From positions 31,759-95,758 of the forward strand of contig JACQPN010000012.1 of the NCBI GenBank assembly GCA_016207515.1: 64,000 bases of DNA. The letters run 5' to 3'. The stretch comes from Methanobacteriota archaeon. Lineage in GTDB: Archaea > Thermoplasmatota > SW-10-69-26 > JACQPN01. A model generated the notes under the pieces. It made no database searches, had not been told where the DNA came from, and worked only from the letters and a program-made list of their open reading frames with translations. Positions 134 to 60,899 of the stretch are shown piece by piece (position 1 is the first letter of the stretch; the number at the start of each line of letters is the position of its first letter). A program made the position numbers and the translations under genes.

Positions 134-781
134 CTAAGAGGCTTTGGAGACCGACTGATCGAGGATCACGTGCGCAGGTTGGAGCTCCGTCTCCGGCGGC
201 ACGTTCACGACGAGGGTGAAGCCCTTGAAGGCGAACTCCAGAGCCTGCTCCTCCTCGCGAGCGGAGGCGCTTTCCACCGCGATCTCAGCGGTCACGTAAG
301 CTGGCCGGGCCTCGTGCCGGCGAAGAAGGTCCGTGAGGTCGAAGGTGTGCGAATGCCACGTCCCGTCGGCGGGGGCCGATTGATCGTGAAGGGTGTGGCC
401 GGACACTTCCATGTCGTCGTCTCTCCCGACGCGCGCGTTGGCCCTCACGTGGAAGCGTATCTCTTGCGCCCCGGATCCGCCCCAAAGTCGGCGTCTCTCG
501 ATGAAGTGGAATACGGCCGATTCGATCGAGCGTAGGTCCGTCAAGGCCACCGGCCTCGTCCAGATGCTGCCTTTTCCCGTCGCGCCGCCGCCGCTCGTGA
601 AAGCCATCTCCTGGCCGTCCTTACGCCACGCGGGCGGCCGCACTGAAGGCAGTTTCTTCATGAGTTTGTCCACGAGGCCCTTTCGGATGTCCGCGACGGT
701 CTCGTCGAACGTGAACGAATCGAGGCCGTCCTGGGGCGTGAAGATGTACTCGTATTGCTTCCGTGGGTCCTTTCGTGGCAT
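134..781 (-). CDS. hypothetical protein, 215 aa
   Basis: ORF track. Same strand as the PDGT-repeat gene and 72 nt downstream of it. Balanced amino-acid composition, unlike the Arg/Pro-rich antisense ORFs. No motif I recognise. Confidence 0.5.
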   Translation of the reverse strand: MPRKDPRKQYEYIFTPQDGLDSFTFDETVADIRKGLVDKLMKKLPSVRPPAWRKDGQEMAFTSGGGATGKGSIWTRPVALTDLRSIESAVFHFIERRRLWGGSGAQEIRFHVRANARVGRDDDMEVSGHTLHDQSAPADGTWHSHTFDLTDLLRRHEARPAYVTAEIAVESASAREEEQALEFAFKGFTLVVNVPPETELQPAHVILDQSVSKAS

Positions 782-853: not shown

Positions 854-2197
854 CTACTGGCTGCGGTTGATGGTCCCATCGGGGTTGATGGTGAGGACCG
901 ACCCGTTGGGGAAGCTCCTCGAAATCGACCCGTCGGGGTGCTCCGTGACGGTGACGCCGTTCGGCATCGACTTCACGAAGGTCTTGTCCGCGAGCACCTT
1001 GAAGATGGTGCCGTCCGGGAGTTCCTTCACGAACTGCCCGTTCTTCCATTCGGACACGATCGCGCCGTCGGGCATCGTCTTGATGATGCTGCCGTCCGCG
1101 AGGACTTTCACCATCGTGAGGTCCTTCAAGGTCTTCACGAGCATGTTCGAGGGAAGCTCCTTCACGACCGTCTCGTCCGGGAGCGTCTTGATGAGCGTCC
1201 CGTCCGGGTTGATCTCCAAGGTCGTGTCGTTCGGTAGCGTCCTCACAACGGTGTAGTCGGGGAGCTGCTTCACGAGCGCCCCGTCCGGGAACTCCTTCGT
1301 GAAGGTCCTGTCGGCGAACTCGCGCACGATTGTACCGTCGCGGAGGATCTTCTCGAGCGTCTTGTCGGCCTTCATGCGGATGATCGTGCCGTCGGCGAGC
1401 CTTTTCTCGAACACGCCAGAGACGTAGTCGCGCACCGTGACGCCGTCGCGGGTGGTCTTGGTTATCGTCCCGTCGTGGGCGACTTCCACGGTCGCGCCGT
1501 CGGGAAGGACCTTCCTGAGCGTCCTGTCGCCGGTCTCCGTGATCTGCGACCCGTCGGGGAAGTGCTTCGTGACGCTCTTATCGGCATCGATCCTGACCTT
1601 GACGCCGTCGGACGTCTCCTTTTCCAAGCGGCCGTCGGGCTGGTTGCGGATCGTCGTACCGTCGGGTAGCTTCTTCTCGAAGCTCCCTTCCCAAACGGCG
1701 AGTTCAGTGCCGTCGGGGAGGCGGTGGACGAACGTGCCGTGCGGGTCGATGGTGACGTTCGAACCGTCTTTCAGCTTGAGGCTGAAGCCGGCCATCCCGT
1801 AGTGGGCGCTCTCGCCGTTTGCGTAGTTGACGCCGACCTCGCTTCCGCGGGCGACGGTGATCCCCGTCTTGTTCGGGAAGTTGAGGATGAGGTCGCGCTG
1901 CGGGGTCGCCTCGACGTTGAGGCCGTCCGCGAAGCGGGATTCGAAGTGTCCGCTCTCGTCGACGCGCACGGTGGTGCCGTCCGCATACTTCTGGGTGAAC
2001 ACGTGCTTCGGGCTGACCGTGATCGTCACGTCGCCGAGCTGACGGCGGATCGTGCCGTCCTCAAGCACCTTCACTTCCTGTCCGGCGTGGGAAACCGGGC
2101 TGTCGAAGTCCGTCTCCTTGGCCTTCGAGACGTCCGTCCATTCACTGGCCTCCTCATGTCCGCCCTTGCGGGTCTCTGTCCTTGTCTGCTTTGGCAT
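854..2197 (-). CDS. G-box (Tcp10_C / CPAP-like) beta-hairpin repeat protein, 447 aa
   Basis: ORF track gives 854..2248. I prefer the ATG at 2197 (MPKQTRTE...) because AGGAGA lies 7 nt upstream and this removes the overlap with the upstream gene. More than 25 units of about 10-11 aa of the type x-L-P-D-G-T-x-V-x-x (LPDGTTIRNQPDGRLEKE..., NPDGTLIKTLPDETVVKELP..., HPDGSISRSFPNGSVLTINPDGT). The plus strand shows a ccgtc(c/g)gg motif recurring every ~30-33 nt. Confidence 0.75.
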   Translation of the reverse strand: MPKQTRTETRKGGHEEASEWTDVSKAKETDFDSPVSHAGQEVKVLEDGTIRRQLGDVTITVSPKHVFTQKYADGTTVRVDESGHFESRFADGLNVEATPQRDLILNFPNKTGITVARGSEVGVNYANGESAHYGMAGFSLKLKDGSNVTIDPHGTFVHRLPDGTELAVWEGSFEKKLPDGTTIRNQPDGRLEKETSDGVKVRIDADKSVTKHFPDGSQITETGDRTLRKVLPDGATVEVAHDGTITKTTRDGVTVRDYVSGVFEKRLADGTIIRMKADKTLEKILRDGTIVREFADRTFTKEFPDGALVKQLPDYTVVRTLPNDTTLEINPDGTLIKTLPDETVVKELPSNMLVKTLKDLTMVKVLADGSIIKTMPDGAIVSEWKNGQFVKELPDGTIFKVLADKTFVKSMPNGVTVTEHPDGSISRSFPNGSVLTINPDGTINRSQ

Positions 2198-2216
2198 TCT
2201 TTCGTCTCCTGTGAAT

Positions 2217-2654
2217 TCACTGGGCCTTGTTGACTTGAAGCTCCTCAAGGCGTGATAATGAAACGAGGAACACCTGGTCCCTCAGGCTCTCGCCGAAGCG
2301 CGCCAGGTAGCGGATGTTCGCGAACTCGCGCGCGAGCTGCTTGTCGCCGACGGTTTCGGAGATCCACCGTTCGATGTCGCCCGCGTAGATCCCGTATTCG
2401 AGGGCCTTGATGTCGACCGTCTTGACCGCGTCGACGAAGTCGTCGAGCCGGGCCACGCGCAGGATCCCGTTACGGTGCTTGCCGGTCTTGAAATCGAAGG
2501 GCGACCAGAAGAAGGTCCGCAGAAAACTTTCGGCGTCGGCGACCTCGGAGACGGGAATCCGACGAGGGACCTCCGTGAGCGAGAGCGGGCGCACGTCGAC
2601 GGCCATCGGCGGTTTGTTCTGCGTTATTGCCTTACGGGTTTCTGGACCAGCCAC
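2217..2654 (-). CDS. hypothetical protein, 145 aa; first gene of the three-gene minus-strand cluster
   Basis: GTG start at 2654 preceded by GGGAGGT about 7 nt upstream. An AT-rich region with TATA-like elements lies upstream (2655-3128). It ends 19 nt before the repeat-protein start. No firm family assignment. Confidence 0.5.
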   Translation of the reverse strand: MAGPETRKAITQNKPPMAVDVRPLSLTEVPRRIPVSEVADAESFLRTFFWSPFDFKTGKHRNGILRVARLDDFVDAVKTVDIKALEYGIYAGDIERWISETVGDKQLAREFANIRYLARFGESLRDQVFLVSLSRLEELQVNKAQ

Positions 2655-5157: not shown

Positions 5158-8100
5158 ATGAGGCGGAGAGCGGGCGGCAGCAAGGCAAGGGCATTCTCGA
5201 CCATCATCGCAGTGGCGCTCCTCGCGACGCCAGGGTCCACCGCGTTTTTCCCCGGCGAGGCGAGCGCCGCGCCGGCGGAGGGCCACGAGGCGGAAGGCAG
5301 CGAGACCGCGTTTCCATCGGCGGTCGAAAACGTCCCACCGGTCGTCTCGGACCTCCTCGGTCGGGTAGGCCTCCCCAAGGCGCCATTCGCCTCGCCCGGC
5401 GGGCCGCCGACGCCCGTGACGGAACAATCCTTCGTCCCGCCGACGCCTGACCCCGTGGGCTTCGAGGAGAACCTCGGCCAGGTCGATCCGCGCGTGCGGT
5501 TCACTCTCCGCGACGGCGGTTCAATGTTGTACCTCCTCGACGATTCCTTTGTCCTGCGTCTTATCGATGTTTCAAAGCGCGATGAGAACGGGGCGCCGGC
5601 GGAATCAACGATGAGCGTCGTCTCGTTCACCATGGAAGGCGTTGCACCGGGCCTTCGCCCCGCCGCATCGGCCTCGCTCCCCATGACGGGCAACCATTTC
5701 ATCGGCTCGGACCCTCACGGATGGGTCTCGGGTGCCGCGCATTACGAACGGGTCACGTACGCATCCGTCTACGAGGGTATAGACCTCGTGTTCCGCTCAA
5801 CGGCAGCGGGGCCGGAATACGACTTCGTGCTCCGACCAGGTGCAGATGCTGACCAGATCCGTTTGCGGATCGACGGCACCGACGGCATCCTCATCGACCC
5901 GATGGGCGAACTGGTGGTCAAGACAGGTGCCGGGGAGATCCGGCACGCAAAGCCATCGGTCTACCAGGTCTCCGACGCGGGCCGCGTTGATGTCCCGGGA
6001 AGCTTTTTCATGATCTCCGAGGACACCGTCGGCTTCCAGACCCTGTGGAAGGATGCGGCTGCGGAACTCGTGATCGACCCGCTCGTCTACTCCACGTTCT
6101 ACGGCGGCACGGGCGACGACGTCGCCGAGGCCGTTGCCATCGGCTCCGACGGTTCCACGTATTTTGCCGGCTGGACCTGGAGTTCGGACTTCCCCACCAC
6201 CACGGGTTCCTACTCGGCCTCGAAGCCCACCGACATCTACGGCTGCGGTTGCCAATACGTGTTCTTCATCACGAAGTTCAACGCCGCCGCCACATCGGTC
6301 GAGTTCGCGACGTACGTCGGCGACTCTGTCGGATTGGACCCTACCCACGTCGGGATGGCCCTCGACGGGGCCGACCGTGTCTACGTGACCGGCGCGACCT
6401 ACGGGCCCGACTATCCACTGGTCAATCCCGTGGAGAACCCGCCATCAGGAATAGACCGAGTCCGCGCCGTCGTTTCCAAATTGAGCGCCGATGGTTCCAC
6501 GCTCCTCTTCTCCACGACCATCGGCGAAGGCTCGTCCTCGAAGGGGCATGCCTTGGTGGTCGCCGATGACGGAACGATCTGGGTCGCAGGCGATGCCAGG
6601 GAAGGCTTCCCGACGACCCCTGACGCGATCGACTCGGCGTACGCCGGCGCCGGATACGATCAAGGTGACGCCGTCCTTGCAAGGCTTGACCCCGCAGGTT
6701 CAATCGTCTACGCGACGTACCTGGGCGGCCTCTCCGACGACGAGATCAATACGCTGTCCGTCTCTCCAGACGGTAGGATCACAGTGGCCGGCGACACGCG
6801 TTCGGCGACATTCCCGACCACGGCTGGCGCGTTCATGGAGCGGGGACCGAGCCTTCCCCGGGTATCTGCGGAGGCCGCGAGCGCCACCATCGGCGACCAC
6901 ACGTACATCTTCGGCGGGCTCGAATGCTTGGGCAATGGTTTCAGTTACTGCGATGACGTCGTCCGCTTCGGGGCGGCCGATCTCTCCGCCGAAGTCATGA
7001 CGGCCCGCTTTCCGACCGGTTTTTCGCTTGCTGCCGGCGCAAGCGACCGGACATATGGGTACGCGATAGGCGGATTCGATGTGGTCTCCTGCGGCGAGGG
7101 CTGCTATACCGGCGCCTGGTCGGGGGCGATTCGCCGGTACGATCCGACGGCCGACGCGGTCGCCATCATGGGTGCTTCCGTCGAACCACGTGCCGGCGCG
7201 GCCGCTGTTGGGCTTGGAGATTACGTCTACATCTTCGGCGGCACGTACGACTACTTCTATCCGACGCGTAGCGACATCCTGCGCTACGACCCCGCGACCG
7301 ACACGGTCGAGACGATGGGTGCCACGCTACCGAGCCCGAACGGTTGGGAAGGCTGGGGCGACGGCCCCGCGGCGACGGACGGCAGCAGCATCTACCTCTT
7401 CGCCGGACAGCGGCCAGGCTCGATGCTCGACACCATCATGCGCTACGATCCTTCGACGGATTCGCTCACGACGATGACGGCGGCGTTCCCGGCGCCGCTT
7501 GCGAGGGCTAGCGCCCTCTGGACCGGCACCGCCTTCTACATATTCGGGGGCGTGACGGAGTGCGAGGGCTGTTACCTCACGCCCGTCGACACGGTCTACC
7601 GCTACGACCCGTTGACGGACACGTTGACGACCGTTGCGGGGACCCTTCCGACGACCCTCTACTCCGCCTCGGCCACGTGGGACGGGACGAACGCGTACCT
7701 CCTCGGTGGATTCGCCGGGTGGCAATTGAGCTTCGGCGTCCTCCGGTTCGATCCCGTTTTCGGGGCCACGTCAGGCCTCACCAATGGCGGAGGGCGGGAC
7801 GCCTTCGTCGCGGAGATCGCTGGTAACGGCACGTCCCTCGCGTGGTCGACCTTGCTCGGCGGCGACACGGACGATGCCTTGAACGCGATGGCGTTCGACG
7901 GCAACGGTCAGATCCTCGTGGCGGGCTCCACCTATTCGCTCGACTTCCCGACCCAGTTCGCCTTCGACTCCACGCGGGCCGGAAGCGGCGAGGTCCCGAG
8001 TCAGGACGCCTTCCTTTCCAGACTGTCTTCGACGGGGAACGCGTTGCTTTATTCGACTTTCCTCGGTGGCGAGGAGGACGACGCGGCGAACGCCGTAGGG

Positions 8101-11100
8101 ATCGACGGGTTCGGCAACATGTACGTCGCGGGCAAGACCCACTCGGGCGATTTCCCCGTGACGGCGAACGCGGAGCAAGGCACCTTCGCAAGCTACTATT
8201 TCTACAACTCCGACGCGTTCTTGTCGGAGCTCGATCCGTTGGGCGCGTCCCTCGTCTATTCGAGTTTCCTTGGCGGCCGGGAGACCGACGTCGCCAACGC
8301 GATGGCGATGGACGAGTTCGGCAATCTCATCCTGGTCGGGACCACGGGTTCGTCAGATTTCCCGGTCGCGAACGCCATACAGCCGGAGAACGCGGGCGGC
8401 TCTGGGATGGACGCATTCGTCACGAAGATCCCGTTCCTCGGTGGCGGCGTCGGGAACGGCAACAATGGCAACAACTTCCCGACGATCCAGGACGCCATCA
8501 ATAATTCGCGTCCCGGCGACACGATCTACATCGCCCCGGGCACCTACCTCGAAGCGCTCACCGTGGACAAGAACCGGTGGGGCGAGGACCTCACGGACCT
8601 CTTCCTATGCGGCGCGACGGAAGCGGGGGTCCGGGGTTGCGGCGGGTTCTCCAACGAGGGGCCGAAGGTGATCGTCGACGCAACGGGTATCTCTGACACG
8701 GTCATCGACGTGAGCGCAGGCGGATTCACTTCGCTTACCGTTAGGTACCAACACCTCGGGCCTGCCGAGGGCGACGAGGTCGTCGGGGCCCGCTTCAACG
8801 ACGTGTATTATCCGCAGTTCAACACCAATTGGATCGTCGTCCAAGGCGGGGGCTGTACGCAGGCCCAAGTGGCGGCGGGCCAATGCGATCAAGCCGGAGG
8901 GGCCCGCGTCTACGGCGTCAAGGGGAGGACGCTCGGCGGCTTCCTGGCGTACAACACCGTCTCGGCGGACGTCCCCCTCGCCGACGGTTCGATCGGCGGC
9001 ACGTCAGGCTTCAAGGGGTGGTTCTACTACACGGGGCTTCGCGGCAACACCGTGAAAGGGTGGACGACGGCGGCGTTCGAGGTCACCGACGTCGTGAACA
9101 TCATCGAGGACGGGGTCGTCGATACGAACTCGGTGGGTGTTCTCCTGTGCGGGACGACCTACTCGGTCATCGTGAACAACGACTTCAAGAACAACGGGGC
9201 GGCCCTGTCTTACTGCGCGACGAACGTCTCCGTGCCGAACTACATCCACTTCAACAAGTTCGAGACGAGTAACGCCATCGGCGCGTCCGTTCCGGACGGC
9301 GTCGAAGGACAGGTGATAGATCTAAGGGCCAACGATTGGCAGATCTACCGTCACACGGGGATCGGGCCCCGCGTCGCCGATTCGGGAACGGGTAACACCG
9401 TGAAGTACGTGCCGTTCATGCTCGTCGACGGGAGCATCGAACCGCCGCTCGTCGTAGTGTCCCCATACCCGCACTGGTCCTGCGACTATTCGTGGGCCGA
9501 GGTCATCATCGTCTACGACAATTATTGGGACTACCACTGCGCATTCACGTCGATCGACGGCGCGCTCCAATTCGCCCAGAGCGGCGACACGATGATCGCG
9601 CCCGGCTCCATCTACCCGACGAGCCCCACGCCGCGACTTGAGAACGTGACGATCGAGAGCAATGCGCCTTTCTTCGAGGAATCGTCGAGGCTCGACGGCG
9701 TCAGGATCTGCAGCAGCACGCGGGACAACAACACGGCCTGCAACCCATCGGCGGGGATCAACGTCGTGGACTCGTCGGGATCGGGCAAGCCGGCTTTCAC
9801 CGTCGGCGAAGTCGAGGGTGTCCTCATCGACGGTTTCACCTTCACCGGCGCGAGTCCGGTCTTTTCTTCCGAAGGTTCGACGGCGATGGAAGTGCGCGAC
9901 AGCACGTTCGCCGTGAGCGCTAGCGCGACACAGGCCCGGCACGGCGCGATCCTCCGGGACACGACGGACGCCGTGCTCCGCTTCAACCGCGTGCTTGGGA
10001 ACATGTACCCGGGGAGCATCGGCATCGGAGCGTACGATTCCGTGGACCCGACGGTCTCATTGAACAACATCGACCAGAGCGGGACCGGTGTCTATTTCAG
10101 CGGCGTGGTCGGCGGCGAGGCGCGCGGCAACGTGATACGCGTCGCCCCGGCTTCGCAGTTCGGCGGCCAGTCGCTCGGCGTCAGTTTCTTCACCGGCACC
10201 GGTCAGGCGGCGCGGTACAACACCTTCGAAGGCACGGGGATAGGCCTCACGGTCAAGGGAGCGACCGAGGTCTACGCGCATTCGAACACCTGGAACGCCG
10301 TGCCGACCGGGATCCGGCTTTCGGCCTCGTGGGCTCCGATTGATGCGGCACAGCCCGATGGCATACTTCTCCGGTACAACCGTCTCGATGGCGCCGCCAC
10401 GAAACTCCTCATAGAACCGGGTGTCGCAGGACTCGCCGTCGATGCGCGATACAACCATTGGGGTGCTTACAGCAGGGACACCATTGAAGCAACTATCGAA
10501 GACGCCGGGACCGGCGATTCCGTCGACGTGTCCTGCTTTTACGACCTCGACGGGACGCACACCGTCTGCCCGCCGACCCCGTCGTTTGACGTCTCGCCCG
10601 CGACCGGCCATTGGCGGACGGCCTTCACGTTCACGGACACCTCGACACCGGGCGGTCGTGCCATCGATTCATGGGATTGGGACTTCTCGGACGGGTCGAC
10701 GGCCGCTGGATCGACGGTGAGCCACACCTTCGCCCGCTCGGGCGTCCTGCAAGCGACGCTCACCATCGAGGACGCGGAAGGTTACGTCGAGTCCACGACC
10801 CGCGACGTGACCGTGACGAATGCGGCGCCGGTCCTTCAACCCGTGGGCGCGAAGACGATCGCCGAGGCGAGCGAACTCCGGTTCTATGTCCAAGGTAGCG
10901 ACCCCGATGGGGATTCCCTTACGTTCGTCGCGTCGGACCTACCGGCCGGCGCGTCGCTTTCGAACCTGCCGGACGGGCGCGGACTTTTCGCGTGGACCCC
11001 CTCGTTTTCGCAGGCCGGCGTCCACCGTGTGACCTTGGGCGTTACCGACGGGGACCTCACCGGTTCTGAAGCCGTCGACATCACCGTCGGAAACGTCGAT

Positions 11101-11925
11101 CGGCCACCGATCGCATCGCTCATCGGGCCGTCGATACTTCGCTTGGGGCAGGTCGGAACATTCACGAGCACTTCCACGGACCCCGACGGCCAATTGGCGG
11201 GCGAGGACTGGAGCTTCGACGACGGGGCCACGGCCGCGGGCAAGACGGTGACGCATGCATTCGCGACCGAGGCTTCACACTACTACACTTTGACCGTGAC
11301 CGACCCCGAAGGCGCGTCCGCTTCCATCACGAGGAGCGTGATCGTCGACGGCACGGCACCGGTCACGACCGCAGCGGCCACGGGGACGCGATCCCCGTCC
11401 GGTTGGTACACGTCAAGCGTTTCCGTGACGCTCCTCGCCTCCGACTCCGGCGGTTCTGGTCTCCTGGCGACCTACTACCGGTGGAACGGCGGGAACCGCA
11501 TCGGCTACAATCCGTCGACCGGCATCAACGTCCCGACCGACGGGACGACGTCGATCGCGTTCTGGTCCGAGGACCGCGCCGGGAACGCGGAGTCGTCAGG
11601 CCTCATGACCATCCGGATCGACAGGACGGCGCCGGTCGCGTCAATCACATCGCCTTCGACGTTGGCCGGTACTGACGTCGGAATCGTGGAGCCGGGCCCG
11701 GTGAACTTCACGGCCGACGTAAGCGATGGCACGGGATCGGGCGTAGCGCAAGTGAAGTTCTACGTGGATGGGGTGCTCGTCAAGGTGCAGACCGGAAGCG
11801 GGCCTTACTATCACCTTTGGGACGCTTCGACGGCAACGCCCGGTCGGCACGTCTTGGAGGTGCGGGCCATCGACGCCGTGGGCTTCGCAAGGTCGGAATC
11901 GGTGAGCGTCATCAGGAGACCATAG
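5158..11925 (+). CDS. giant secreted multidomain surface protein, 2255 aa
   Basis: GAGGGAG Shine-Dalgarno before the ATG; signal peptide MRRRAGGSKARAFSTIIAVALLATPGSTAFF. Domains in order: N-terminal FEENLGQVD...YDFVLRPGADADQIRL domain; SBBP-type repeats (GGTGDDVAEAVAIGSDGSTYFAGWTWSSDFPTT and similar); Kelch-like blades (YIFGG...RYDPxTDT); beta-helix starts (IQDAINNSRPGDTIYIAPGTYLE); two PKD domains (WDFSDGSTAAGSTVSHTF); a cadherin-like Ig domain (SDPDGDSLTF); and the conserved C-terminal module. Confidence 0.9.
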   Translation: MRRRAGGSKARAFSTIIAVALLATPGSTAFFPGEASAAPAEGHEAEGSETAFPSAVENVPPVVSDLLGRVGLPKAPFASPGGPPTPVTEQSFVPPTPDPVGFEENLGQVDPRVRFTLRDGGSMLYLLDDSFVLRLIDVSKRDENGAPAESTMSVVSFTMEGVAPGLRPAASASLPMTGNHFIGSDPHGWVSGAAHYERVTYASVYEGIDLVFRSTAAGPEYDFVLRPGADADQIRLRIDGTDGILIDPMGELVVKTGAGEIRHAKPSVYQVSDAGRVDVPGSFFMISEDTVGFQTLWKDAAAELVIDPLVYSTFYGGTGDDVAEAVAIGSDGSTYFAGWTWSSDFPTTTGSYSASKPTDIYGCGCQYVFFITKFNAAATSVEFATYVGDSVGLDPTHVGMALDGADRVYVTGATYGPDYPLVNPVENPPSGIDRVRAVVSKLSADGSTLLFSTTIGEGSSSKGHALVVADDGTIWVAGDAREGFPTTPDAIDSAYAGAGYDQGDAVLARLDPAGSIVYATYLGGLSDDEINTLSVSPDGRITVAGDTRSATFPTTAGAFMERGPSLPRVSAEAASATIGDHTYIFGGLECLGNGFSYCDDVVRFGAADLSAEVMTARFPTGFSLAAGASDRTYGYAIGGFDVVSCGEGCYTGAWSGAIRRYDPTADAVAIMGASVEPRAGAAAVGLGDYVYIFGGTYDYFYPTRSDILRYDPATDTVETMGATLPSPNGWEGWGDGPAATDGSSIYLFAGQRPGSMLDTIMRYDPSTDSLTTMTAAFPAPLARASALWTGTAFYIFGGVTECEGCYLTPVDTVYRYDPLTDTLTTVAGTLPTTLYSASATWDGTNAYLLGGFAGWQLSFGVLRFDPVFGATSGLTNGGGRDAFVAEIAGNGTSLAWSTLLGGDTDDALNAMAFDGNGQILVAGSTYSLDFPTQFAFDSTRAGSGEVPSQDAFLSRLSSTGNALLYSTFLGGEEDDAANAVGIDGFGNMYVAGKTHSGDFPVTANAEQGTFASYYFYNSDAFLSELDPLGASLVYSSFLGGRETDVANAMAMDEFGNLILVGTTGSSDFPVANAIQPENAGGSGMDAFVTKIPFLGGGVGNGNNGNNFPTIQDAINNSRPGDTIYIAPGTYLEALTVDKNRWGEDLTDLFLCGATEAGVRGCGGFSNEGPKVIVDATGISDTVIDVSAGGFTSLTVRYQHLGPAEGDEVVGARFNDVYYPQFNTNWIVVQGGGCTQAQVAAGQCDQAGGARVYGVKGRTLGGFLAYNTVSADVPLADGSIGGTSGFKGWFYYTGLRGNTVKGWTTAAFEVTDVVNIIEDGVVDTNSVGVLLCGTTYSVIVNNDFKNNGAALSYCATNVSVPNYIHFNKFETSNAIGASVPDGVEGQVIDLRANDWQIYRHTGIGPRVADSGTGNTVKYVPFMLVDGSIEPPLVVVSPYPHWSCDYSWAEVIIVYDNYWDYHCAFTSIDGALQFAQSGDTMIAPGSIYPTSPTPRLENVTIESNAPFFEESSRLDGVRICSSTRDNNTACNPSAGINVVDSSGSGKPAFTVGEVEGVLIDGFTFTGASPVFSSEGSTAMEVRDSTFAVSASATQARHGAILRDTTDAVLRFNRVLGNMYPGSIGIGAYDSVDPTVSLNNIDQSGTGVYFSGVVGGEARGNVIRVAPASQFGGQSLGVSFFTGTGQAARYNTFEGTGIGLTVKGATEVYAHSNTWNAVPTGIRLSASWAPIDAAQPDGILLRYNRLDGAATKLLIEPGVAGLAVDARYNHWGAYSRDTIEATIEDAGTGDSVDVSCFYDLDGTHTVCPPTPSFDVSPATGHWRTAFTFTDTSTPGGRAIDSWDWDFSDGSTAAGSTVSHTFARSGVLQATLTIEDAEGYVESTTRDVTVTNAAPVLQPVGAKTIAEASELRFYVQGSDPDGDSLTFVASDLPAGASLSNLPDGRGLFAWTPSFSQAGVHRVTLGVTDGDLTGSEAVDITVGNVDRPPIASLIGPSILRLGQVGTFTSTSTDPDGQLAGEDWSFDDGATAAGKTVTHAFATEASHYYTLTVTDPEGASASITRSVIVDGTAPVTTAAATGTRSPSGWYTSSVSVTLLASDSGGSGLLATYYRWNGGNRIGYNPSTGINVPTDGTTSIAFWSEDRAGNAESSGLMTIRIDRTAPVASITSPSTLAGTDVGIVEPGPVNFTADVSDGTGSGVAQVKFYVDGVLVKVQTGSGPYYHLWDASTATPGRHVLEVRAIDAVGFARSESVSVIRRP
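6880..7760 (+). other. Kelch-type propeller inserted inside the SBBP repeat array (domain of the 2255-aa protein)
   Basis: Repeated blades: DHTYIFGG, GDYVYIFGGTYDY...ILRYDPATDTVETMGATLP, SSIYLFAGQ...IMRYDPSTDSLTTM, TAFYIFGG...VYRYDPLTDTLTTV, TNAYLLGG. SBBP units lie on both sides. Confidence 0.6.
11350..11922 (+). other. conserved C-terminal module, copy A (end of the 2255-aa protein)
   Basis: GWYTSSVSVTLLASDSGGSGLLATYYRWNGGNRIGYNPSTGINVP...RIDRTAPVASITSP...VNFTADVSDGTGSGVAQVKFYVDGVLVKV...GRHVLEVRAIDAVG. Collinear with 32460-33034, and shares an identical 21-nt run (11499-11519 = 32612-32632). Confidence 0.7.
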
Positions 11926-12696: not shown

Positions 12697-13845
12697 CTAC
12701 GGGCCCGCGGTCGGGCTGGCCGAGGTAAGCCAGGGGCTAAACGAGGGGGCTTGAGCTCCAGCCAGGCATTTCGTTACCGCGTCACCGCTTCCGCTTCCAA
12801 GGCCGCTTGGGCCCGACGAGTCTCCCCACCAGTTGTTCGTCCAGTTCAGGACGTTGGAAGAGCACGTTCTTAGTCCGTAGTTCGAGTTTCCGAAGATGTT
12901 GTTCCCGGAATAGGAATAGGTGCTGGTTCCACCACCGATATCGATGCCGCCGCCGGAATTGTAGGAGACGATGTTATCATCCACATGGGCGCCGCTCGAC
13001 CCAGTGTAAATGCCGACTCCGGTGTTGTTCGTGACGAGGTTGTGGCTGATGGTGACGTTGGTGTAGGAGCCCAAGAAAACGATGCCGCGAGCCGCGGCGG
13101 CCGTGACGGTATTCCCGTCAGCTACGACATTCGAACAGGCCAACACAATCCCGGAGTGACTCGAAGTGGTGACGCTATTGGCAGAAACATTCGTCCCGCC
13201 GCACGCCGCCACACTCACGCCGCTATAGCAACCTGAGACGGAATTGCTGCCGACCATTGAACCGCTGCTCGTCCCACTTATCAGAATACCAATGGACCCC
13301 ACCGAGCCAGCCGCACACTCCACCGTGTTCCCACTCACGCTCACCCCAGCGCTGTCGTGCACGAAGATGCCGTCACCAGATTGCACGCCGACCAAGTAAC
13401 TTCCCGCGGGCCCGATGGTGTTAGACTCGATTCGGACGTTCGCCGAGTCCTCCACGTAAATCTCCGCAAGTTTGTGGTGGCTGACGACGTTGTTCCGAAT
13501 AACGACGTAGGCCGTAGTTTGGATTATGGTGATGCCGCCGCACACGTCCTCGAAGGTTGAGCACTCTGGTGAGAGCGCCCCGTCAATGCTCCAACCCTCG
13601 ATCACGTAGGGGTTGGCCGCCGTACCGCATCCACCCACGACGCCGTTCGCCGCGTTTGGAACGCAAGAGACGCCCAGGCCCGCGTTTCCGATTATCAGTA
13701 TCGCTGGCCGTGAGATGGGGGCTGCGGCGGCGAGTCCTGGCAAAAAAATACTGACGAGCAAGACAAATGTGCATAACGTCACTCCGAAGCTCGAAAGCCT
13801 CCCGCCAGTCACGTCCTGAAAGTAGCCGTGGGAGTATTTCAACAT
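12697..13845 (-). CDS. secreted NosD-like right-handed parallel beta-helix protein (copy 1), 382 aa
   Basis: ORF track gives 12697..13896. I prefer the ATG at 13845 (MLKY...), which matches the MLKG... start of the paralog and leaves about 100 bp for divergent promoters. Hydrophobic signal/anchor VTLCTFVLLVSIFLPGLAAAAP. Repetitive beta-helix turns (NTIGPAG, SGNTVECAAG, SANSVTTSS, DGNTVTAAAA, ISHNLVTNNTGVGIY, DDNIVSYNSGGGI, SGNNIFGNSNYG). Terminal NWWGDSSGPSG...GDAV...SPWL motif. Confidence 0.8.
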   Translation of the reverse strand: MLKYSHGYFQDVTGGRLSSFGVTLCTFVLLVSIFLPGLAAAAPISRPAILIIGNAGLGVSCVPNAANGVVGGCGTAANPYVIEGWSIDGALSPECSTFEDVCGGITIIQTTAYVVIRNNVVSHHKLAEIYVEDSANVRIESNTIGPAGSYLVGVQSGDGIFVHDSAGVSVSGNTVECAAGSVGSIGILISGTSSGSMVGSNSVSGCYSGVSVAACGGTNVSANSVTTSSHSGIVLACSNVVADGNTVTAAAARGIVFLGSYTNVTISHNLVTNNTGVGIYTGSSGAHVDDNIVSYNSGGGIDIGGGTSTYSYSGNNIFGNSNYGLRTCSSNVLNWTNNWWGDSSGPSGLGSGSGDAVTKCLAGAQAPSFSPWLTSASPTAGP

Positions 13846-13900
13846 TCTCCGAATCGCCTGTTTGCTATCGCGCTCCAAGACTTCGCCGAAAAGCACAAAC

Positions 13901-13907
13901 TTTATAA
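13901..13907 (+). promoter_or_regulatory. TATA box candidate (tttataa) in the divergent intergenic region
   Basis: A-rich BRE-like sequence aagcacaaac lies immediately upstream. The box is 38 nt upstream of the ATG at 13945. The element is nearly palindromic (reverse complement ttataaa), so it could also serve the minus-strand gene about 55 nt away. Confidence 0.4.
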
Positions 13908-13927
13908 GCGCGCGCGCGCGCGTGTAT
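13908..13927. repeat. alternating purine-pyrimidine tract, (GC)7 followed by GTGTAT
   Basis: Read directly as gcgcgcgcgcgcgcgtgtat. It lies between the TATA candidate and the glycoprotein start codon. Confidence 0.9.
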
Positions 13928-13944
13928 TTGTTGGGGGCAAGAAA

Positions 13945-16900
13945 ATGGGGCGGGCTAAGCCTAGAGCAATAATAATTACGTTCATCATTCTATTTTCTGG
14001 ATTTTCCTTTCCTCTTGATGTTGAGCCGCTACAGTTAGCTCCGGTAGCAAGCGCGGGGCACGGTGGTCCCCATCCCGAACTGAAGCAAGTCGTCACGGAC
14101 CCACCCAATCCGAATTCCACGACTGACGTGTACCTGAAGGCGGAGTGCTCAAATTGCAGCGAAATCAGTCTTGAATGGTTCGTCGACGGCGTGAAGTCAG
14201 ACGATGCCCAAATCTCATTTGAGAGCATCCCTCCGGACGGGGTTTTCAATTTCAAGTATTCACTGATTCCGGCGAGCCAGCTCAAGTACGGTGCGAACGT
14301 CACTTGGACGGCGAACGCCACATTGACCGCTCTCCTGACCGATTCCAAATCGGGGTACTTCGTCGTCGGCAACAGCCACCCGGTCGCGACCGTTCACCCG
14401 CTGCTTAAGTCTCAAGGATTCTCCGTCAATCGATTTCAATCGCTTGATTTGGAGACATTCTACAATAGGGAGTACCGCGACGGTAATTGGACCTATTGGC
14501 AGGACACCGTGAAAGTGCAGGACAAGGAGCAGGACGACAATGAGTCGTTCGCGATCCAGCAGAATCTCTCGTACAATTGGGATTTCAAGGAGGGAAACTT
14601 CAGCGCGTTCTCGAACTCGTCACGGGCCAGTCACGAGTGGCGGGACCTAGGGGATTATCAGGTCCGCGTCACCGTGAAGGATTGGAGCAAGGCGACTGGC
14701 GCGCAATTGAATTCCACCACGGCCGATATTCCGGTCCATGTTCGAAACCAGCCGCCTTCCCTAACATTTCTTGAAGCCCGTGAGATGCCCGCGATGGATT
14801 CGGACACATCTACGATCGCGGACGACGATGTCGACACGACCGACGTCCTGCGCGTGAAGGTCCATTGGTCGGATGGGGACGCTGCGACTGGCGCGGATCA
14901 AGTGTTTCTTGATTTCTACGATGTAAGCGCCACCGCCGCCGCACTGAACGCTACACGAGAGGTGAACGCGACGGGTGTTGGAGCGAACGTGTCGGTCGTT
15001 GAATTACCACTGGTGGATTTCAAGGCGTCGAGGCTTCGCGTGTGCATCCGCGACAGGGTCACCACATTGCCCGTCAACGGAGCCATCCCGTTGCAAGCTG
15101 GACGCAACCTCACGCTAGCGGGGAAGATCTGCCTCACCACAGAGATCCTTCAGAAATTCAACCCCCTTGACCTACGCGGGATCGACGTCGTCCACTTCGT
15201 GTCGGGCGATGCGCCGTTTTCCACCACGGGCAACGTCACTGATATTTGGACGAAGGTGCCGTTGGATGTCTCCACGCCGCACGAGCGGAACGAGACCATC
15301 CGGTTCTTCAATGAGAATCTCACGAAACTCATGAATGGTCGACCGCCTCGGGTACTGGCGATTGAAAGCCTCGGATACCCGTTGACCGACGAGGTGAACG
15401 CGAAGCTCGGTCTCCTGCGCGATTTGGGCACGTTGATAATCGCGCCCGTCGAAGCGAACGATTTCAGCACAACGGTGACGCAGTACTACACGGCGGGCGG
15501 AATCGGCATCAGCCGCCACGTCATCGGGGTCGGTGTCGCGAACCAGTCGATGAACGGGGCACGCCTTGGAACGCCGGCCGGGCCCAACGGCATGATGCTC
15601 GCCAAACCCGATTTCCTCGTCGCGCTTCCTGATAACATGGCTATGGCGCAAGCTCAAGTGCAGGCCGTGCGGAACGTCACGGATTTGGCCGCGATCCTCA
15701 TGCTCAAGGGGATTACAGACCCGTTCATCATCGAAGAATACCTTCGGACCATCGCCGTGCCGTCGTGGAACGGCGTCGACGCTATCGACAATGCGTGGCG
15801 CCAGGGTTATGGAATCCTTAACACGACGAACATCCTCGGCTTCGTCTCCAACGCGACTTTCAGCCCGCAAAACCTCAGCAAGGATCACAATCTCTCCGTT
15901 TGGGGAAATTCCTCGAAGCTCAACCACATCGTCGACCTTGCACCGGTCCTTCTCAATCCCTCCGCCGACTTCGGGGTCACGACGCGAGAGAACGCCACGA
16001 CGGCGCACTTGAAGCTCGTGAACCCGTCCATGGTGTTGCCAAGTCTCGGAGATCAACTCTTGGGGTCTCCGCGCGCCCTGCTCGACAAAGGTTTGCTGCC
16101 CAACACCGTCTTCGCCTCGGAGAAGAAGGTTCGCATCAACGTCACGTTCTACCACTTCCCCGAAACCCTGTTGAACAATGCGAGCGAGGCGATGCGCGGC
16201 CTCGGCCACGAATCCGCCGTTTGGAGCCTCATGGGAAGCAACACGACGGACCCGAACCTGACCGTGAACACGACCTCGGACATCCTTTCAGACTTGAATT
16301 CGAGCCGCGGAAGCCTGGACCACCCTTTGAAGCCGTATTATTTCATCCCCGAGACGACCGCGACGGTCGGCGGTGACTTCGCGGTCACCCGGATTTCTCC
16401 CTATGTCGAACCGCTCCTGGAAGCGGCCGACATCGCCTTGGACCGGACCAAGTACCTCGGGTTCTCGTCGGAATCGCCGTTGAACGCCTCGACGCGTTTC
16501 GCCATCCAGCAGCACCGGCTTGGTCTCGTCGCGCTTCGCGCTAATCTCACGAACGTCGGGGACTTGGATCGCGTCACCGGAAACGTGAGCCTCCTAAAGG
16601 TCAAGCTCACGAATCTCGTGGCGATAGTCCCTTCGGACCCCGTGTTGAAGCCCTTGAATGACACGGTGAGGAATTACACGGAGCAATTGGCGTTGTTCGC
16701 GAGTCGGACCGTGGGCGCCGTCACATCACTGGGGGACGAGACGTTTGTGGATCTCACGACGGAGGCCGAAAAGACCACGCAAGCACCCTACGGTCACTAT
16801 TTCGGCGTCGTCCGCGTCATCGCGGAGGACATCTGCAACAACTCCACCGCGACGGGACAGGATCAGACCTGCAAAACGATCATCAAAACGGCGCCGACTG

Positions 16901-20673: not shown

Positions 20674-21160
20674 CGTTTGGTGGCGGGTATCGGCTCCTCG
20701 ACTCGGATGCGACCGATTGCCGGGAACCCGGTTGCGTGGCTCGGGTTGATCGAAGACGGCGCGTTATCGACGCGAAGACGACGCTACGGATCAGCATAGA
20801 TGCATCGTCTTTCCGGGAACACGAAAACCAGCGCCGATCCGCGGTCACGCCGCGGTTCACTGATCGCGTTCCGAGTTCCCGATCTCTCCGAATCTCGCAG
20901 CTGATCAGCTCCGCATTTGAACATGTTTGACAAGTATTCCAAAAACCGGTTGTTAACCTCCTATCGTAACAACGATATCATATTAATACGACCGGTGTCC
21001 TCTTCACGTAAGCCCCAGATGGCGAACTGGGACGGGAGACTGGGGAGGCGGAACGCGGTTTCCGTAGCCGAAGAAAGTGTTCGGTTGTCGGTCACGCTTT
21101 TTCGCGCGCCTCGCTTTCTCGATCGGTCAGGATTTCGTCGCCGAAAAAGAGGGATTTGAA

Positions 21161-46468: not shown

Positions 46469-46566
46469 CAGAGTAGGTGCGGCTGTTTAAGTGTTTTTTC
46501 GATACATTCTATTCCTTTCAGCATCCAGTATATGAACTCGCAGGGGTTTGCGTTTCCGGGGAGAGG

Positions 46567-53640: not shown

Positions 53641-53770
53641 GGTCGGCGTGAAGACGCCGTGAGCGTTTAAATGCGTTACGAGAAACCGACCCTAGACGTG
53701 ACGCCCTAAAAGGCCGGCGCCCGTCGCTTTGGTCCGGGTCTTCGTACCAATGCATCCCGGCGGGGGATAA

Positions 53771-54784: not shown

Positions 54785-54827
54785 CCATCCCGTCTGCCCT
54801 CCTTAAGGGCTTTGGCGCCGTTGCAGC

Positions 54828-55241
54828 ATGGGCATCGTTAAGACCGGCCCGGAGATTCTCCTCCCAATGGGAATACTCGGTTCGGAAGGGGTGCTCGTCG
54901 TCGTCTCGCTTCACCTCAAGACGCCGCACGCCATTCTCGGTTGGGCCCAGCGAAGCGGCGGGTTCCTGAAGGCCTTGAACGCCTCAGAAGGGTTGATCAG
55001 GTCCCATGCGGCGATCGAGTCGCCGACCAAGGTGTTGATTGTCGCGTATTGGAAGGACATGAAGACGCTGATGGCGTGGTACGGGTCGCAGGAGCACCAG
55101 CGCATGGTCGCCTGGGCAAACTCGCATTCCCACGACATCGACCTCACGATCGGCCTCTTCCGTGAGGAAAAAGGCGGATTCGAGCGCATGTCCTCCGACG
55201 ACACCGGTGCGCCGCCGCGAAAACTCTCCGCGCCGTCGTAG
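54828..55241 (+). CDS. hypothetical protein, 137 aa, possibly ABM/DUF4188-like monooxygenase fold
   Basis: ORF track. Weak resemblance (VLIVAYWKDMKTLMAWYGSQEHQRMVAW). Start uncertain. Confidence 0.4.
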   Translation: MGIVKTGPEILLPMGILGSEGVLVVVSLHLKTPHAILGWAQRSGGFLKALNASEGLIRSHAAIESPTKVLIVAYWKDMKTLMAWYGSQEHQRMVAWANSHSHDIDLTIGLFREEKGGFERMSSDDTGAPPRKLSAPS

Positions 55242-55338
55242 ACTCCCCGCCGACCGATGGCGCCGGTCAATCTGGCGACGCAATGAACGCCGTGGCTTAT
55301 GGCACACCTTTATCATCAATCGGGATTGTGGCCGTGCA

Positions 55339-60896: not shown

Positions 60897-60899
60897 CAC

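What the first reader, a model, noticed from the sequence alone, without database searches (positions are those of the whole stretch)
854..2197. Archaeal protein made almost entirely of PDGT beta-hairpin units resembling the eukaryotic CPAP/Tcp10 G-box
The 447-aa product has no signal peptide. It has a charged ~45-aa N-terminus followed by more than 25 consecutive units of about 10-11 aa such as LPDGTTIRNQ, FPDGSQITET, LPDGATVEVA, LADGTIIRMK, NPDGTLIKTL, MPDGAIVSEW, HPDGSISRSF and NPDGTINRSQ. The periodicity is visible in the DNA as a ccgtc(c/g)gg motif every ~30-33 nt.

This is the sequence logic of the G-box / Tcp10_C domain of centriolar CPAP/SAS-4, which forms an open single-layer beta-sheet that can stack into fibrils. 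A cytoplasmic protein of this kind in an archaeon would be an unusual filament or scaffold candidate.
Basis: partly seen in the sequence, partly recalled or inferred. Interest (0 to 1): 0.7.

Follow-up and report, generated by a model that had tools for sequence, protein, structure and literature searches.

The report
Archaeal G-box-type single-layer beta-sheet protein
A real, strongly conserved gene of an uncultured Thermoplasmatota archaeon encodes a soluble protein built almost entirely of about 46 nine-residue "PDG" beta-strand units, and by sequence and predicted structure it matches the open single-layer beta-sheet (G-box/Tcp10_C) of the eukaryotic centriole protein CPAP, though its function in archaea is unknown.

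Summary
The ORF is real: window 854..2197, minus strand, 447 aa, dN/dS 0.04-0.11 against close orthologues. It has no signal peptide, TM segment or Cys.

The repeat is real, but its period is exactly 9 aa (27 nt) with an 18-aa hairpin super-period, not 10-11 aa. There are 33 in-register units and about 13 degenerate ones.

- Pfam Tcp10_C scores 73 bits (gathering threshold 36), and there is no MORN hit.
- phmmer and hhalign match the CPAP G-box at E about 1e-10 to 1e-11.
- The AlphaFold model has 46 short strands. Its best PDB matches are CPAP/SAS-4 G-box crystals (TM 0.87-0.89, RMSD about 2 Å).

Orthologues at 43-98% identity occur in Thermoplasmatota MAGs. Where the downstream flank is readable they sit next to a 215-aa beta-sandwich protein (four other genomes; one exception). 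Strand number is fixed, and a 10-strand core is nearly invariant.

The most likely function is a rigid, roughly 20-nm cytoplasmic binding platform or spacer. Polymerisation is untested.

Novelty is moderate. Bacterial Tcp10_C-type repeat proteins already exist in databases, and NCBIfam even has a model named "not_Tcp10". No characterised prokaryotic example turned up, the STIL-binding residues are not conserved, and convergence cannot be excluded.

The parts
854..2197 (-). CDS of the 447-aa G-box/Tcp10_C-type repeat protein (stop codon at 854-856)
   Evidence: ORF and translation. Pfam Tcp10_C 73 bits, above the gathering threshold. dN/dS 0.04-0.11.
2072..2197 (-). Residues 1-42: a polar, charged tail predicted to be disordered. 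Its sequence and length are not conserved among orthologues.
   Evidence: pLDDT below 50 for residues 1-42. No invariant columns before residue 41, apart from the start Met. No hydrophobic stretch.
1751..2071 (-). Residues 43-149: about 13 degenerate beta-strand units, in which only some turns are D-G. This region includes the conserved motif VLxDGT...P.H.FTQKY.
   Evidence: Register layout. Strands predicted about every 9 residues. It is the only part matched by the orthologue fragment P0106.
857..1750 (-). Residues 150-447: 33 canonical 9-residue units ([L/F]-P-D-G-T-phi-V-[K/R]-x) in perfect register. That is about 16.5 beta-hairpins.
   Evidence: The region aligns without gaps among ~50%-identical orthologues, apart from one 1-residue deletion.
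1103..1372 (-). Residues 276-365: the most conserved 10-strand core, with 5-8 of 9 residues invariant per unit. Every second turn lacks Gly (DK, DR, DY, ND, DE, SN, DL). This is a candidate partner-binding edge.
   Evidence: Per-unit invariance across three ~51%-identical orthologues. The AF2 confidence dip at 349-361 coincides with the conserved PSN and KDL turns.
2206..2209 (-). GGAG ribosome-binding-like motif, 8 nt upstream of the ATG. It lies in the 19-nt gap after the stop codon of the upstream gene.
   Evidence: Read directly from the sequence.
2217..2654 (-). Upstream co-directional gene. It is 145 aa from a GTG preceded by GGGAGGT, or 129 aa from the ATG that Logan called. It has no family assignment and is a possible operon partner.
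   Evidence: ORF. Only sub-threshold Pfam hits. A 36%-identical homologue occupies the same position in L003 only. The Shine-Dalgarno-like motif was read.
134..781 (-). Downstream co-directional 215-aa gene, the conserved neighbour of the G-box gene. It is predicted to be an N-terminal helix followed by a jelly-roll-like beta-sandwich, with no family assignment.
   Evidence: It is adjacent to the G-box gene in the window and in L003, L004, L008 and L009. dN/dS 0.097. The AF2 model has pLDDT 59 and gives only generic beta-sandwich Foldseek hits. No Pfam, NCBIfam or PADLOC hit.

Best explanation
**What it is**
The gene encodes a soluble, probably cytoplasmic protein of a Thermoplasmatota archaeon. 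A ~42-residue disordered tail is followed by about 46 antiparallel beta-strands, one per 9 residues, joined by tight PDG-type turns. The protein is a member of the G-box/TCP (Pfam Tcp10_C) class of beta-hairpin repeats.

**What is shown or computed**
These points rest on sequence and on predicted structure.
- Family membership holds at the domain level.
- The period is a strict 9 or 18 residues.
- The predicted local fold is an open, single-layer beta-meander that superimposes on the CPAP G-box.
- Purifying selection is strong.
- Strand number is fixed among orthologues.
- A 10-strand core is nearly invariant.
- The gene is usually adjacent to a 215-aa beta-sandwich protein gene.

**What is inferred**
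- The protein forms a twisted ribbon about 20 nm long without a hydrophobic core. This assumes 46 strands at about 0.47 nm each, scaled from the ~8-nm, 17-strand G-box.
- It acts as a rigid, length-defined binding platform or spacer.
- As CPAP does with STIL, it would bind extended peptide segments of partners along one edge of the sheet. The likely site is the conserved core at residues 276-365, whose alternate turns carry conserved non-glycine residues.
- The neighbouring 215-aa protein is the prime candidate partner, and the 145-aa upstream protein is a possible second one.

**My probabilities**
- G-box-like single-layer sheet fold: about 0.85.
- Cytoplasmic location: about 0.75.
- Scaffold or partner-binding role rather than self-assembling filament: about 0.45.
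For: **Family and fold**
- Pfam Tcp10_C scores 73.1 bits against a gathering threshold of 36, E=1.3e-20.
- phmmer matches the CPAP G-box at E=1.4e-11 and SAS-4 at 4e-5.
- hhalign of the orthologue profile against the zebrafish G-box gives probability 96.5% and E=8.5e-10.
- AF2 predicts 46 strands. Mean pLDDT is 73, and mostly 85-95 across residues 170-330.
- The top seven Foldseek hits are CPAP G-box structures, with TM 0.87-0.89 at 1.7-2.2 Å.
- The PDG type I turns and the ~20-strand solvent-exposed single sheet of CPAP are described in PMC3776556.

**Real and constrained gene**
- dN/dS is 0.038 and 0.108.
- Orthologues are 43-98% identical in six other contigs.
- Units within the protein are only about 26-29% identical to each other, whereas orthologous positions are 51% identical. 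The repeats are therefore old and individually constrained, not recently amplified.
- There are no indels across residues 177-447, apart from one residue.
- Residues 276-365 are nearly invariant.

**Soluble**
- No TM segment or signal peptide occurs in the query or in the L003, L004 or P0106 N-termini. There are no Cys.

**Partner**
- The 215-aa gene is adjacent in the window, L003, L004, L008 and L009.
- The gaps between genes are short (19 and 72 nt) and a Shine-Dalgarno-like motif is present.
Against: - No experiment exists for any prokaryotic member, so the function is pure inference from CPAP.
- The CPAP residues that contact STIL are mostly not conserved in the best alignment. Y994 aligns with R274, Y996 with K276, Q1019 with T298 and E1021 with T300. 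Only F978/Y258 and F1015/F294 stay aromatic. The alignment register in a repeat is also ambiguous.
- The AF2 model was built from a single sequence, has pTM 0.47, and gives no reliable global shape. Confidence drops at residues 349-361.
- L005 lacks the 215-aa neighbour, and the 145-aa upstream gene is detectable only in L003.
- The model of the 215-aa protein is low-confidence and uninformative.
- PDG-turn hairpins also give E about 1e-6 hits to designed beta-trefoils and propellers. Sequence similarity in such short repeats could therefore be convergent.
Confidence: 0.6

Rival explanations
1. Self-assembling filament. The open N- and C-terminal edge strands of the ribbon pair head-to-tail, as seen in crystals of the CPAP G-box. 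This would build a continuous, soluble, amyloid-like beta-sheet fibril that serves as a cytoskeletal element or molecular ruler in the archaeal cytoplasm.
For: - The C-terminus ends right after the last strand with no capping domain, and the N-terminal edge strand is preceded only by a disordered tail.
- Hatzopoulos et al. (PMC3824074) report head-to-tail G-box fibrils with ~8 nm periodicity and concentration-dependent assemblies.
- Strand number is strictly conserved among orthologues, as expected for a ruler.
- The protein evolves more slowly than its neighbour, as structural polymers often do.
Against: - Cottee et al. (PMC3776556) found the same CPAP domain predominantly monomeric by SAXS and SEC-MALS, and judged the crystal contacts small.
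- The terminal units are less conserved than the internal core, whereas a polymerisation interface should be conserved.
- The variable, charged N-terminal tail could act as an entropic cap.
- No polymerisation test is possible with these tools.
Confidence: 0.15
2. Extracytoplasmic cell-envelope protein. Like many prokaryotic Tcp10_C-repeat proteins, it would act outside the cell as a stalk, spacer or adhesin, exported by an unrecognised route.
For: - 48 of the 150 best relatives carry multi-TM anchors or N-terminal hydrophobic, signal-like segments.
- The window is rich in giant PKD, Kelch and beta-helix surface proteins.
- In the window's own lineage, a 2-TM protein and a HerA/FtsK-type ATPase follow the 215-aa gene.
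Against: - There is no signal peptide, Tat motif, TM segment, lipobox or Cys in the query or in any orthologue whose N-terminus is available.
- Both conserved neighbours also lack export signals.
- The HerA and 2-TM genes are not linked in the ~50%-identical orthologous loci L003 and L004.
- The neighbouring AOR gene is cytoplasmic and is transcribed divergently.
Confidence: 0.1
3. Convergent PDG-hairpin repeat, not homologous to the eukaryotic G-box and possibly not sharing its fold. A simple 9-residue strand-plus-turn unit would have been amplified independently, and would match Tcp10_C only because both use the same turn motif.
For: - The unit is short and of low information.
- The total score is summed over many weak repeats, with 6 stretches in Pfam.
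- The same archaeal profile hits designed Symfoil beta-trefoils and Cake propellers at E=1e-6 to 1e-5 through PDG turns.
- There are weak hits to aRib and CopK.
- NCBI curators named the model of one bacterial family 'not_Tcp10'.
- One phmmer hit, P0017, is really a TIR-NB-ARC-WD40 protein.
Against: - The period is the same (9 residues per strand), which gives a nearly gapless 174-residue alignment to CPAP.
- CPAP is five orders of magnitude better than any other PDB sequence.
- The Pfam score is twice the gathering cut-off.
- Only G-box crystals superimpose well on the model (TM 0.87-0.89). Propellers align at RMSD 38-47 Å.
- Uniform 4-5-residue strands and 4-5-residue turns leave no room for blade or core-forming loops.
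- Convergence of origin would not change how the protein works.
Confidence: 0.08

Closest known systems
G-box / TCP domain of CPAP (CENPJ) / SAS-4 (Pfam Tcp10_C, PF07202; PDB 4LD1, 4LD3, 4BXP, 4BXR, 4BY2)
   Same: - Tandem beta-hairpins with PDG type I turns.
- About 9 residues per strand.
- A predicted open single-layer antiparallel sheet without a core.
- Passes the Pfam gathering threshold.
- Model superposition at TM 0.87-0.89 and 1.7-2.2 Å, with 27-28% identity.
   Different: - It is archaeal and stand-alone. There is no coiled coil, tubulin-binding module or other CPAP module.
- It has about 46 strands instead of about 17-20.
- The period is much more regular.
- The STIL/Ana2-contacting residues, including the microcephaly Glu, are mostly not conserved.
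- Archaea have no centrioles, so the partner or partners must differ.
Uncharacterised bacterial Tcp10_C-repeat proteins. Examples are 6-7-TM plus repeat proteins (P0002, P0003), lipoprotein or signal-peptide forms (Chloroflexota MBI4786760.1 = P0007), giant 5900-7100-aa proteins (P0004, P0006), and the Streptomyces 'AAWKG family' (NCBIfam NF038047, 'not_Tcp10').
   Same: - The same repeat, with 27-38% identity over 150-300 residues.
- The same 9/18 periodicity.
- 9 of 10 tested pass Pfam Tcp10_C.
- All are annotated as hypothetical.
   Different: - In these proteins the repeats are an appendage to membrane anchors, signal peptides or other N-terminal domains.
- The archaeal protein is repeats only, with no anchor, and has its own conserved degenerate N-terminal units and its own conserved neighbour.
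- None of them is an orthologue. Only the fragment P0106 matches residues 37-139.
MORN repeat proteins and OspA-type single-layer beta-sheets
   Different: - MORN units are 23 residues long with a 6-residue linker loop (PMC7725318). Here the unit is 9 or 18 residues.
- There is no Pfam MORN hit.
- In OspA the single-layer segment is capped by globular domains at both ends. Here no caps are present.

Membership tests
Tcp10_C / G-box (TCP) domain family, PF07202 | Sequence score at or above Pfam's curated gathering threshold | tested here: met
   73.1 bits against a cut-off of 36, E=1.3e-20, 6 stretches. The orthologue profile against the zebrafish G-box gives hhalign probability 96.5%.
Tcp10_C / G-box (TCP) domain family, PF07202 | Tandem beta-hairpin repeats whose turns are frequently P-D-G (type I turns) | tested here: met
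   There are 21 D-G dipeptides at spacings of 9, 18, 27 and so on. The consensus is [L/F]PDGT-phi-V-K-x. The feature is as described in PMC3776556.
Tcp10_C / G-box (TCP) domain family, PF07202 | Open single-layer antiparallel beta-sheet with both faces solvent-exposed and no hydrophobic core | tested here: met
   This rests on prediction only. AF2 gives 46 strands of 3-5 residues and no helices. The model superimposes on 4ld3_A and 4ld1 at TM 0.89 and 0.87, RMSD 1.7 and 2.2 Å. The global shape of all 46 strands is not established.
CPAP/SAS-4 orthologue (centriolar function) | Conserved STIL/Ana2 proline-rich-motif binding residues (D. rerio F978, Y994, Y996, H1003, T1005, F1015, Q1019, E1021) | tested here: not met
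   In the phmmer alignment, only F978 (Y258) and F1015 (F294) remain aromatic. Y994 aligns with R, Y996 with K, H1003 with E, T1005 with I, Q1019 with T and E1021 with T. The residue list comes from PMC3776556. The register is ambiguous because of the repeats.
CPAP/SAS-4 orthologue (centriolar function) | G-box located C-terminal to coiled-coil and tubulin-binding regions in a long centriolar protein | tested here: not met
   The whole 447-aa protein is a tail plus repeats. No helices are predicted and there are no other Pfam domains.
Tcp10_C / G-box (TCP) domain family, PF07202 | Head-to-tail association into beta-sheet fibrils (reported by one group for CPAP and disputed by another) | not testable with these tools
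   PMC3824074 conflicts with PMC3776556. This needs recombinant protein.
MORN repeat | 23-residue unit (hairpin plus 6-residue loop) and a Pfam MORN match | tested here: not met
   The period is 9 or 18 residues. No MORN family appears at E<=10.
Beta-propeller (WD40/Kelch) or beta-trefoil | Blade or lobe-sized repeat of about 40-50 residues, with 4 strands and variable loops closing into a ring | tested here: not met
   There is no 40-50-residue periodicity. Propeller and trefoil designs align only at RMSD 38-47 Å, despite weak sequence hits through PDG turns.
NCBIfam YPDG_rpt (NF038186) / AAWKG 'not_Tcp10' (NF038047) | Match to the curated prokaryotic models | tested here: not met
   Neither family is listed for the window protein at E<=10. 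NF038047 covers only the N-terminal domain of the Streptomyces proteins.
Known anti-phage defence systems (PADLOC) | Match of the G-box protein or its conserved neighbours to a defence-system model | tested here: not met
   There are no hits for the 145-aa, 447-aa, 215-aa or 126-aa proteins. Only the non-conserved downstream ATPase matches the generic HerA models.

The most novel reading that the evidence does not exclude
Thermoplasmatota archaea use a stand-alone G-box ribbon as a cytoplasmic structural element. It would be a length-defined, roughly 20-nm single-layer beta-sheet that polymerises head-to-tail, or docks a jelly-roll partner at a conserved edge. This prokaryotic repeat lineage would be the evolutionary source of the centriolar CPAP/SAS-4 G-box. 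That would give a centriole building block a prokaryotic ancestry and reveal a new class of archaeal cytoskeletal or scaffold protein.
Probability: 0.12. Interest if true: 0.8.

Novelty: new member of a known kind. Interest (0 to 1): 0.42.

Why it matters
The G-box is one of very few natural single-layer beta-sheets, and it has been studied only in eukaryotic centriole assembly. This archaeal protein is compact, Cys-free and soluble, consists of nothing but that fold, and is extremely regular in its 9-residue register.

It could matter in three ways:
- It would be a clean model for how core-less beta-sheets fold and stay soluble.
- It is a candidate natural nanoscale ruler or scaffold.
- It is a data point on whether the centriolar G-box has prokaryotic roots.

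Slow evolution, a fixed strand count, a nearly invariant 10-strand patch and a conserved neighbour all indicate a specific cellular role that is at present entirely unknown. The find is tempered by two facts. Automated annotation would already label the protein Tcp10_C. Bacterial relatives are known in databases, though uncharacterised.

Tried and rejected
**Searches that found little or nothing**
- The word-indexed homology search with the full protein saturated on repeat words and returned only 3 distant hits.
- The same search with the N-terminal 175 residues found nothing.
- The exhaustive representative search returned 572 hits at E<=1e-3 but no orthologue and not even the query's own cluster. 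These libraries apparently lack the archaeal family, so their counts say nothing about its rarity.
It was repeated with A2 and gave 2 loci, one of them identical to L004.
- Literature searches for prokaryotic or archaeal G-box, Tcp10 or single-layer-sheet repeat proteins found no paper describing them. The two founding structure papers do not mention bacteria or archaea.
- There are no tRNA or Rfam features in the window.

**Neighbouring genes**
- Pfam, NCBIfam and PADLOC gave no usable assignment on the 145-aa and 215-aa neighbours.
- AF2 plus Foldseek of the 215-aa partner gave only generic jelly-roll, CBM, capsid or TNF-like similarity with TM at most 0.53. No function was assigned.
- A HerA / 2-TM / DUF357 linkage was considered as a functional module. 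I rejected it as a conserved feature because it is present only in the window's close relatives (L002, L008) and absent from the L003 and L004 flanks.
- A defence-system context was rejected.

**Other ideas rejected**
- STIL-like proline-motif recognition by the identical residues was rejected.
- A continuous basic stripe on one face was considered. I dropped it because the 18-residue super-period and the strand limits in the model imply that faces alternate between successive strands. This could not be verified without coordinates.
- The plus-strand mirror ORFs inside the gene, such as 867..1256, were rejected as artefacts. The third-position substitution bias is in the minus-strand frame.
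Full report
**1. The observation**

The finding's coordinates hold an ORF on the minus strand, 854..2197 (ATG start, 447 aa; a TTG alternative lies at 2248). A GGAG motif sits 8 nt upstream of the ATG, in the 19-nt gap after the stop codon of the preceding gene.

The product has no hydrophobic segment: the maximum 19-residue Kyte-Doolittle mean is 0.88. It has no cysteine and a pI of 5.7. The quoted units are all present.

The period, however, is not 10-11 aa. Protein autocorrelation peaks only at lags 9, 18, 27, 36 and 45 (0.20-0.25 against about 0.05), and lag 18 is the strongest. DNA autocorrelation peaks at 54 and 27 nt.

Laid out in 9-mers, residues 150-447 form 33 consecutive units in perfect register with no indel. 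The consensus is [L/F]-P-D-G-T-[I/L/V/T]-V-[K/R]-x. Residues 43-149 are degenerate units, and residues 1-42 form a polar tail.

**2. It is a real, constrained gene of an archaeon**

The identical protein is encoded on two Logan metagenome contigs. I found orthologues in three ways:
- A scan of GTDB species genomes gave L003, L004 and L005, at 49-52% identity and near full length. The records are titled Thermoplasmatota archaeon or Methanobacteriota (formerly Euryarchaeota) archaeon.
- A JGI metagenome scan gave L007 at 43%. It also gave L006, which is identical to L004.
- Following homologues of the downstream gene gave L009 at 97.7% and L008 at 89%.

Against L009 and L008, dN/dS is 0.038 and 0.108, and 83 of 98 substitutions fall at third positions of the minus-strand frame. 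The plus-strand mirror ORFs are therefore artefacts.

The window itself carries RadA, Hef, RtcB, RIO kinase, an archaeal prepilin peptidase and an aldehyde:ferredoxin oxidoreductase. This fits an archaeal chromosome.

**3. What fold and family**

The sequence evidence:
- Pfam's top hit is Tcp10_C (PF07202), at E=1.3e-20 and 73.1 bits against a gathering cut-off of 36.
- Nothing MORN-like or solenoid-like appears even at E<=10. The weak aRib and CopK hits reflect shared PDG-type motifs.
- Against PDB sequences, the best matches are the zebrafish CPAP G-box (4bxq, 4bxp, 4ld1) at E about 1e-11. The alignment spans 174 residues with only two single-residue gaps, so the ~9-residue strand period is shared. 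Drosophila SAS-4 follows.
- A profile of three orthologues against the zebrafish G-box gives hhalign probability 96.5% and E=8.5e-10, with gaps of 18, 9 and 10 residues.

The structural evidence:
- Single-sequence AlphaFold2 gives mean pLDDT 73, and mostly 85-95 across residues 170-330.
- It predicts 46 strands of 3-5 residues, one per unit, no helices, and a disordered tail at residues 1-42.
- The top seven Foldseek hits in PDB are CPAP G-box crystals. 4ld3_A gives TM 0.89 and RMSD 1.7 Å over 153 columns. 4ld1 gives 0.87 and 2.2 Å. SAS-4 4by2_A gives 0.80 and 1.5 Å.
- Propellers and other beta-rich folds align only at RMSD above 30 Å.

This is the architecture Cottee et al. describe: a single-layer sheet of about 20 antiparallel strands joined by type I turns, often PDG, with both faces hydrated and no core (PMC3776556). 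The global path of all 46 strands remains unknown (pTM 0.47).

**4. Anatomy that bears on function**

- **The repeats are old and individually constrained.** 9-mers and 18-mers within the protein are only 26-29% identical to each other. Orthologous positions are 51% identical.
- **Strand number is fixed.** Among ~50%-identical orthologues the alignment of residues 177-447 is gapless, apart from one residue in L003.
- **Conservation is patchy.** Units 276-365 (10 strands) have 5-8 of 9 residues invariant. The N-terminal tail and residues 96-176 are variable.
- **One edge looks specialised.** In the conserved core every second turn lacks glycine (DK, DR, DY, ND, DE, SN, DL). So one edge of the predicted sheet is canonical PDG and the other carries conserved, chemically diverse residues. 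The AF2 confidence dip at 349-361 falls on the conserved PSN and KDL turns.
- **The protein evolves more slowly than its neighbour.** Identity is 98 against 87%, 89 against 67%, 52 against 34% and 52 against 29% in the four pairs.
- **No export signal is visible.** No orthologue with an intact N-terminus has one, and the tails are short, polar and not conserved.

**5. Context**

On the minus strand the order is: a 145-aa gene (2217..2654), the G-box gene, and a 215-aa gene (134..781). Beyond the window start come a 126-aa 2-TM protein, a HerA/DUF87 ATPase and DUF357.

The 215-aa gene is adjacent to the G-box gene in the window, L003, L004, L008 and L009. L005 is the exception. The 145-aa gene is recognisable only in L003. 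HerA and the 2-TM gene are linked only in close relatives.

The 215-aa protein has no Pfam, NCBIfam or PADLOC match. Its low-confidence model (pLDDT 59) is an N-terminal helix plus a jelly-roll-like sandwich, with only generic structural neighbours. There is no defence-system signature.

**6. Most likely mechanism**

*Shown or computed:* the protein belongs to the G-box-type single-layer-sheet repeat class. It is under strong constraint, has a fixed length and a conserved patch, and keeps a conserved neighbour.

*Inferred:* the protein is a ribbon about 20 nm long (46 strands at about 0.47 nm, scaled from the ~8-nm, 17-strand G-box of PMC3824074). It would act in the cytoplasm as a rigid, length-defined docking platform. 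CPAP binds a polyproline-II segment of STIL along one sheet edge, packing prolines against aromatic residues that precede the turns. By analogy I expect partner peptides to bind along the differentiated edge of units 276-365. The 215-aa protein is the first candidate.

The exact STIL-contact residues are not conserved. Only 2 of 8 are similar, and the microcephaly Glu aligns with a Thr. So this is 'works like', not 'is an orthologue of', CPAP.

**7. Rivals**

- **(a) Head-to-tail filament.** The edges are uncapped and the length is fixed. But the termini are less conserved than the core, and solution behaviour is disputed even for CPAP.
- **(b) Extracytoplasmic envelope protein.** 48 of the 150 best relatives have anchors or signal-like N-termini, and the window is full of giant surface proteins. 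But no orthologue has any export signal.
- **(c) Convergent PDG hairpins.** Designed beta-trefoils and propellers also hit the profile at 1e-6, and one phmmer hit is really a WD40 protein. But CPAP is five orders of magnitude better, and only G-box crystals superimpose.
- **(d) Not a gene.** Excluded.

**8. Comparison with what is known, and novelty**

Prokaryotic proteins with Tcp10_C-type repeats already exist in databases:
- P0002 and P0003, which have 6 TM segments plus repeats, carry precomputed PF07202.
- 9 of 10 tested relatives pass the Pfam threshold.
- The source names are 'hypothetical protein' (Chloroflexota, a 7085-aa protein from a bacterial MAG) or 'AAWKG family protein' (Streptomyces). 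The NCBIfam model of the latter is literally called 'not_Tcp10'.

I found no paper that describes or characterises a bacterial or archaeal member.

The archaeal family stands out in four ways. It is repeat-only and unanchored. It is extremely regular. It has about 46 strands. It has its own conserved neighbour. I therefore file it as a new member of a known kind, namely a new archaeal family within the G-box/Tcp10_C repeat class, and not as a new kind of system.

**9. Verdict**

The function is inferred only. Interest is moderate, at 0.42: the protein would make a neat and tractable model and is a possible archaeal scaffold, but standard annotation would already flag the domain and no new mechanism is demonstrated.

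Noticed in passing
window 5158..11925 (+), 13828..19602 (+), 21077..33037 (+), 46477..52173 (+): Four giant ORFs of 2255, 1924, 3986 and 1898 aa fill about half of the window. The first has DUF7948, Kelch-type propellers, PKD and Big_7 domains. The second has a single PKD hit. The third has a subtilase S8 domain plus 7 PKD, He_PIG and Big_7/9 domains. The fourth has no Pfam hit at 1e-5. They are probably cell-surface proteins.
   Followed up: partly
window 12697..13896 (-) and 45485..46468 (-): Two NosD-like right-handed beta-helix proteins, each sitting immediately upstream of and divergent from one of the giant ORFs. They may form recurring pairs.
   Followed up: no
L002 3386..5979 (continuation of the operon beyond the window start); also L008 1856..3445: Downstream of the 215-aa gene lie a 126-aa protein with two TM helices, a 611-aa HerA/DUF87 ATPase (HAS-barrel plus a FtsK/HerA-type P-loop) and DUF357. 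HerA is 93% identical in L008. The set is not linked in the ~50%-identical loci L003 and L004.
   Followed up: partly
window 55162..56799 (+): The RtcB match starts only at residue 110 of the 545-aa ORF. Either the GTG start is called too early or there is an N-terminal extension.
   Followed up: no
window 52228..63075: A cluster of archaeal information-processing genes: CysRS, M28 peptidase, RtcB, an archaeal type IV prepilin peptidase, Hef (DEAD helicase plus ERCC4 plus HhH) and RadA. It confirms the archaeal origin of the window.
   Followed up: partly
window 867..1256 (+), 1437..1802 (+); L003 3795..5813 (-); L004 7851..9872 (-): Long antisense 'mirror' ORFs run through the repeat gene, with translations full of PSG and VPSG units. 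They are artefacts of the GC-rich periodic codons and could be mis-called as genes.
   Followed up: yes
proteins P0014, P0024, P0043, P0057, P0071, P0082, P0096, P0127 (relatives, not in the window): A family whose one looked-up member (P0014) is from Streptomyces. It has a conserved N-terminal 'AAWKG' domain (NCBIfam NF038047, short name 'not_Tcp10') followed by Tcp10_C-type repeats. This shows that curators have met bacterial Tcp10_C hits and chose not to name them after the eukaryotic protein.
   Followed up: partly
search libraries: Neither the word-indexed library nor the exhaustive protein library returned the query's own cluster or its 50-98% identical archaeal orthologues. The contig-based tools did find them. 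Absence from those protein searches is therefore not evidence that the family is rare.
   Followed up: partly
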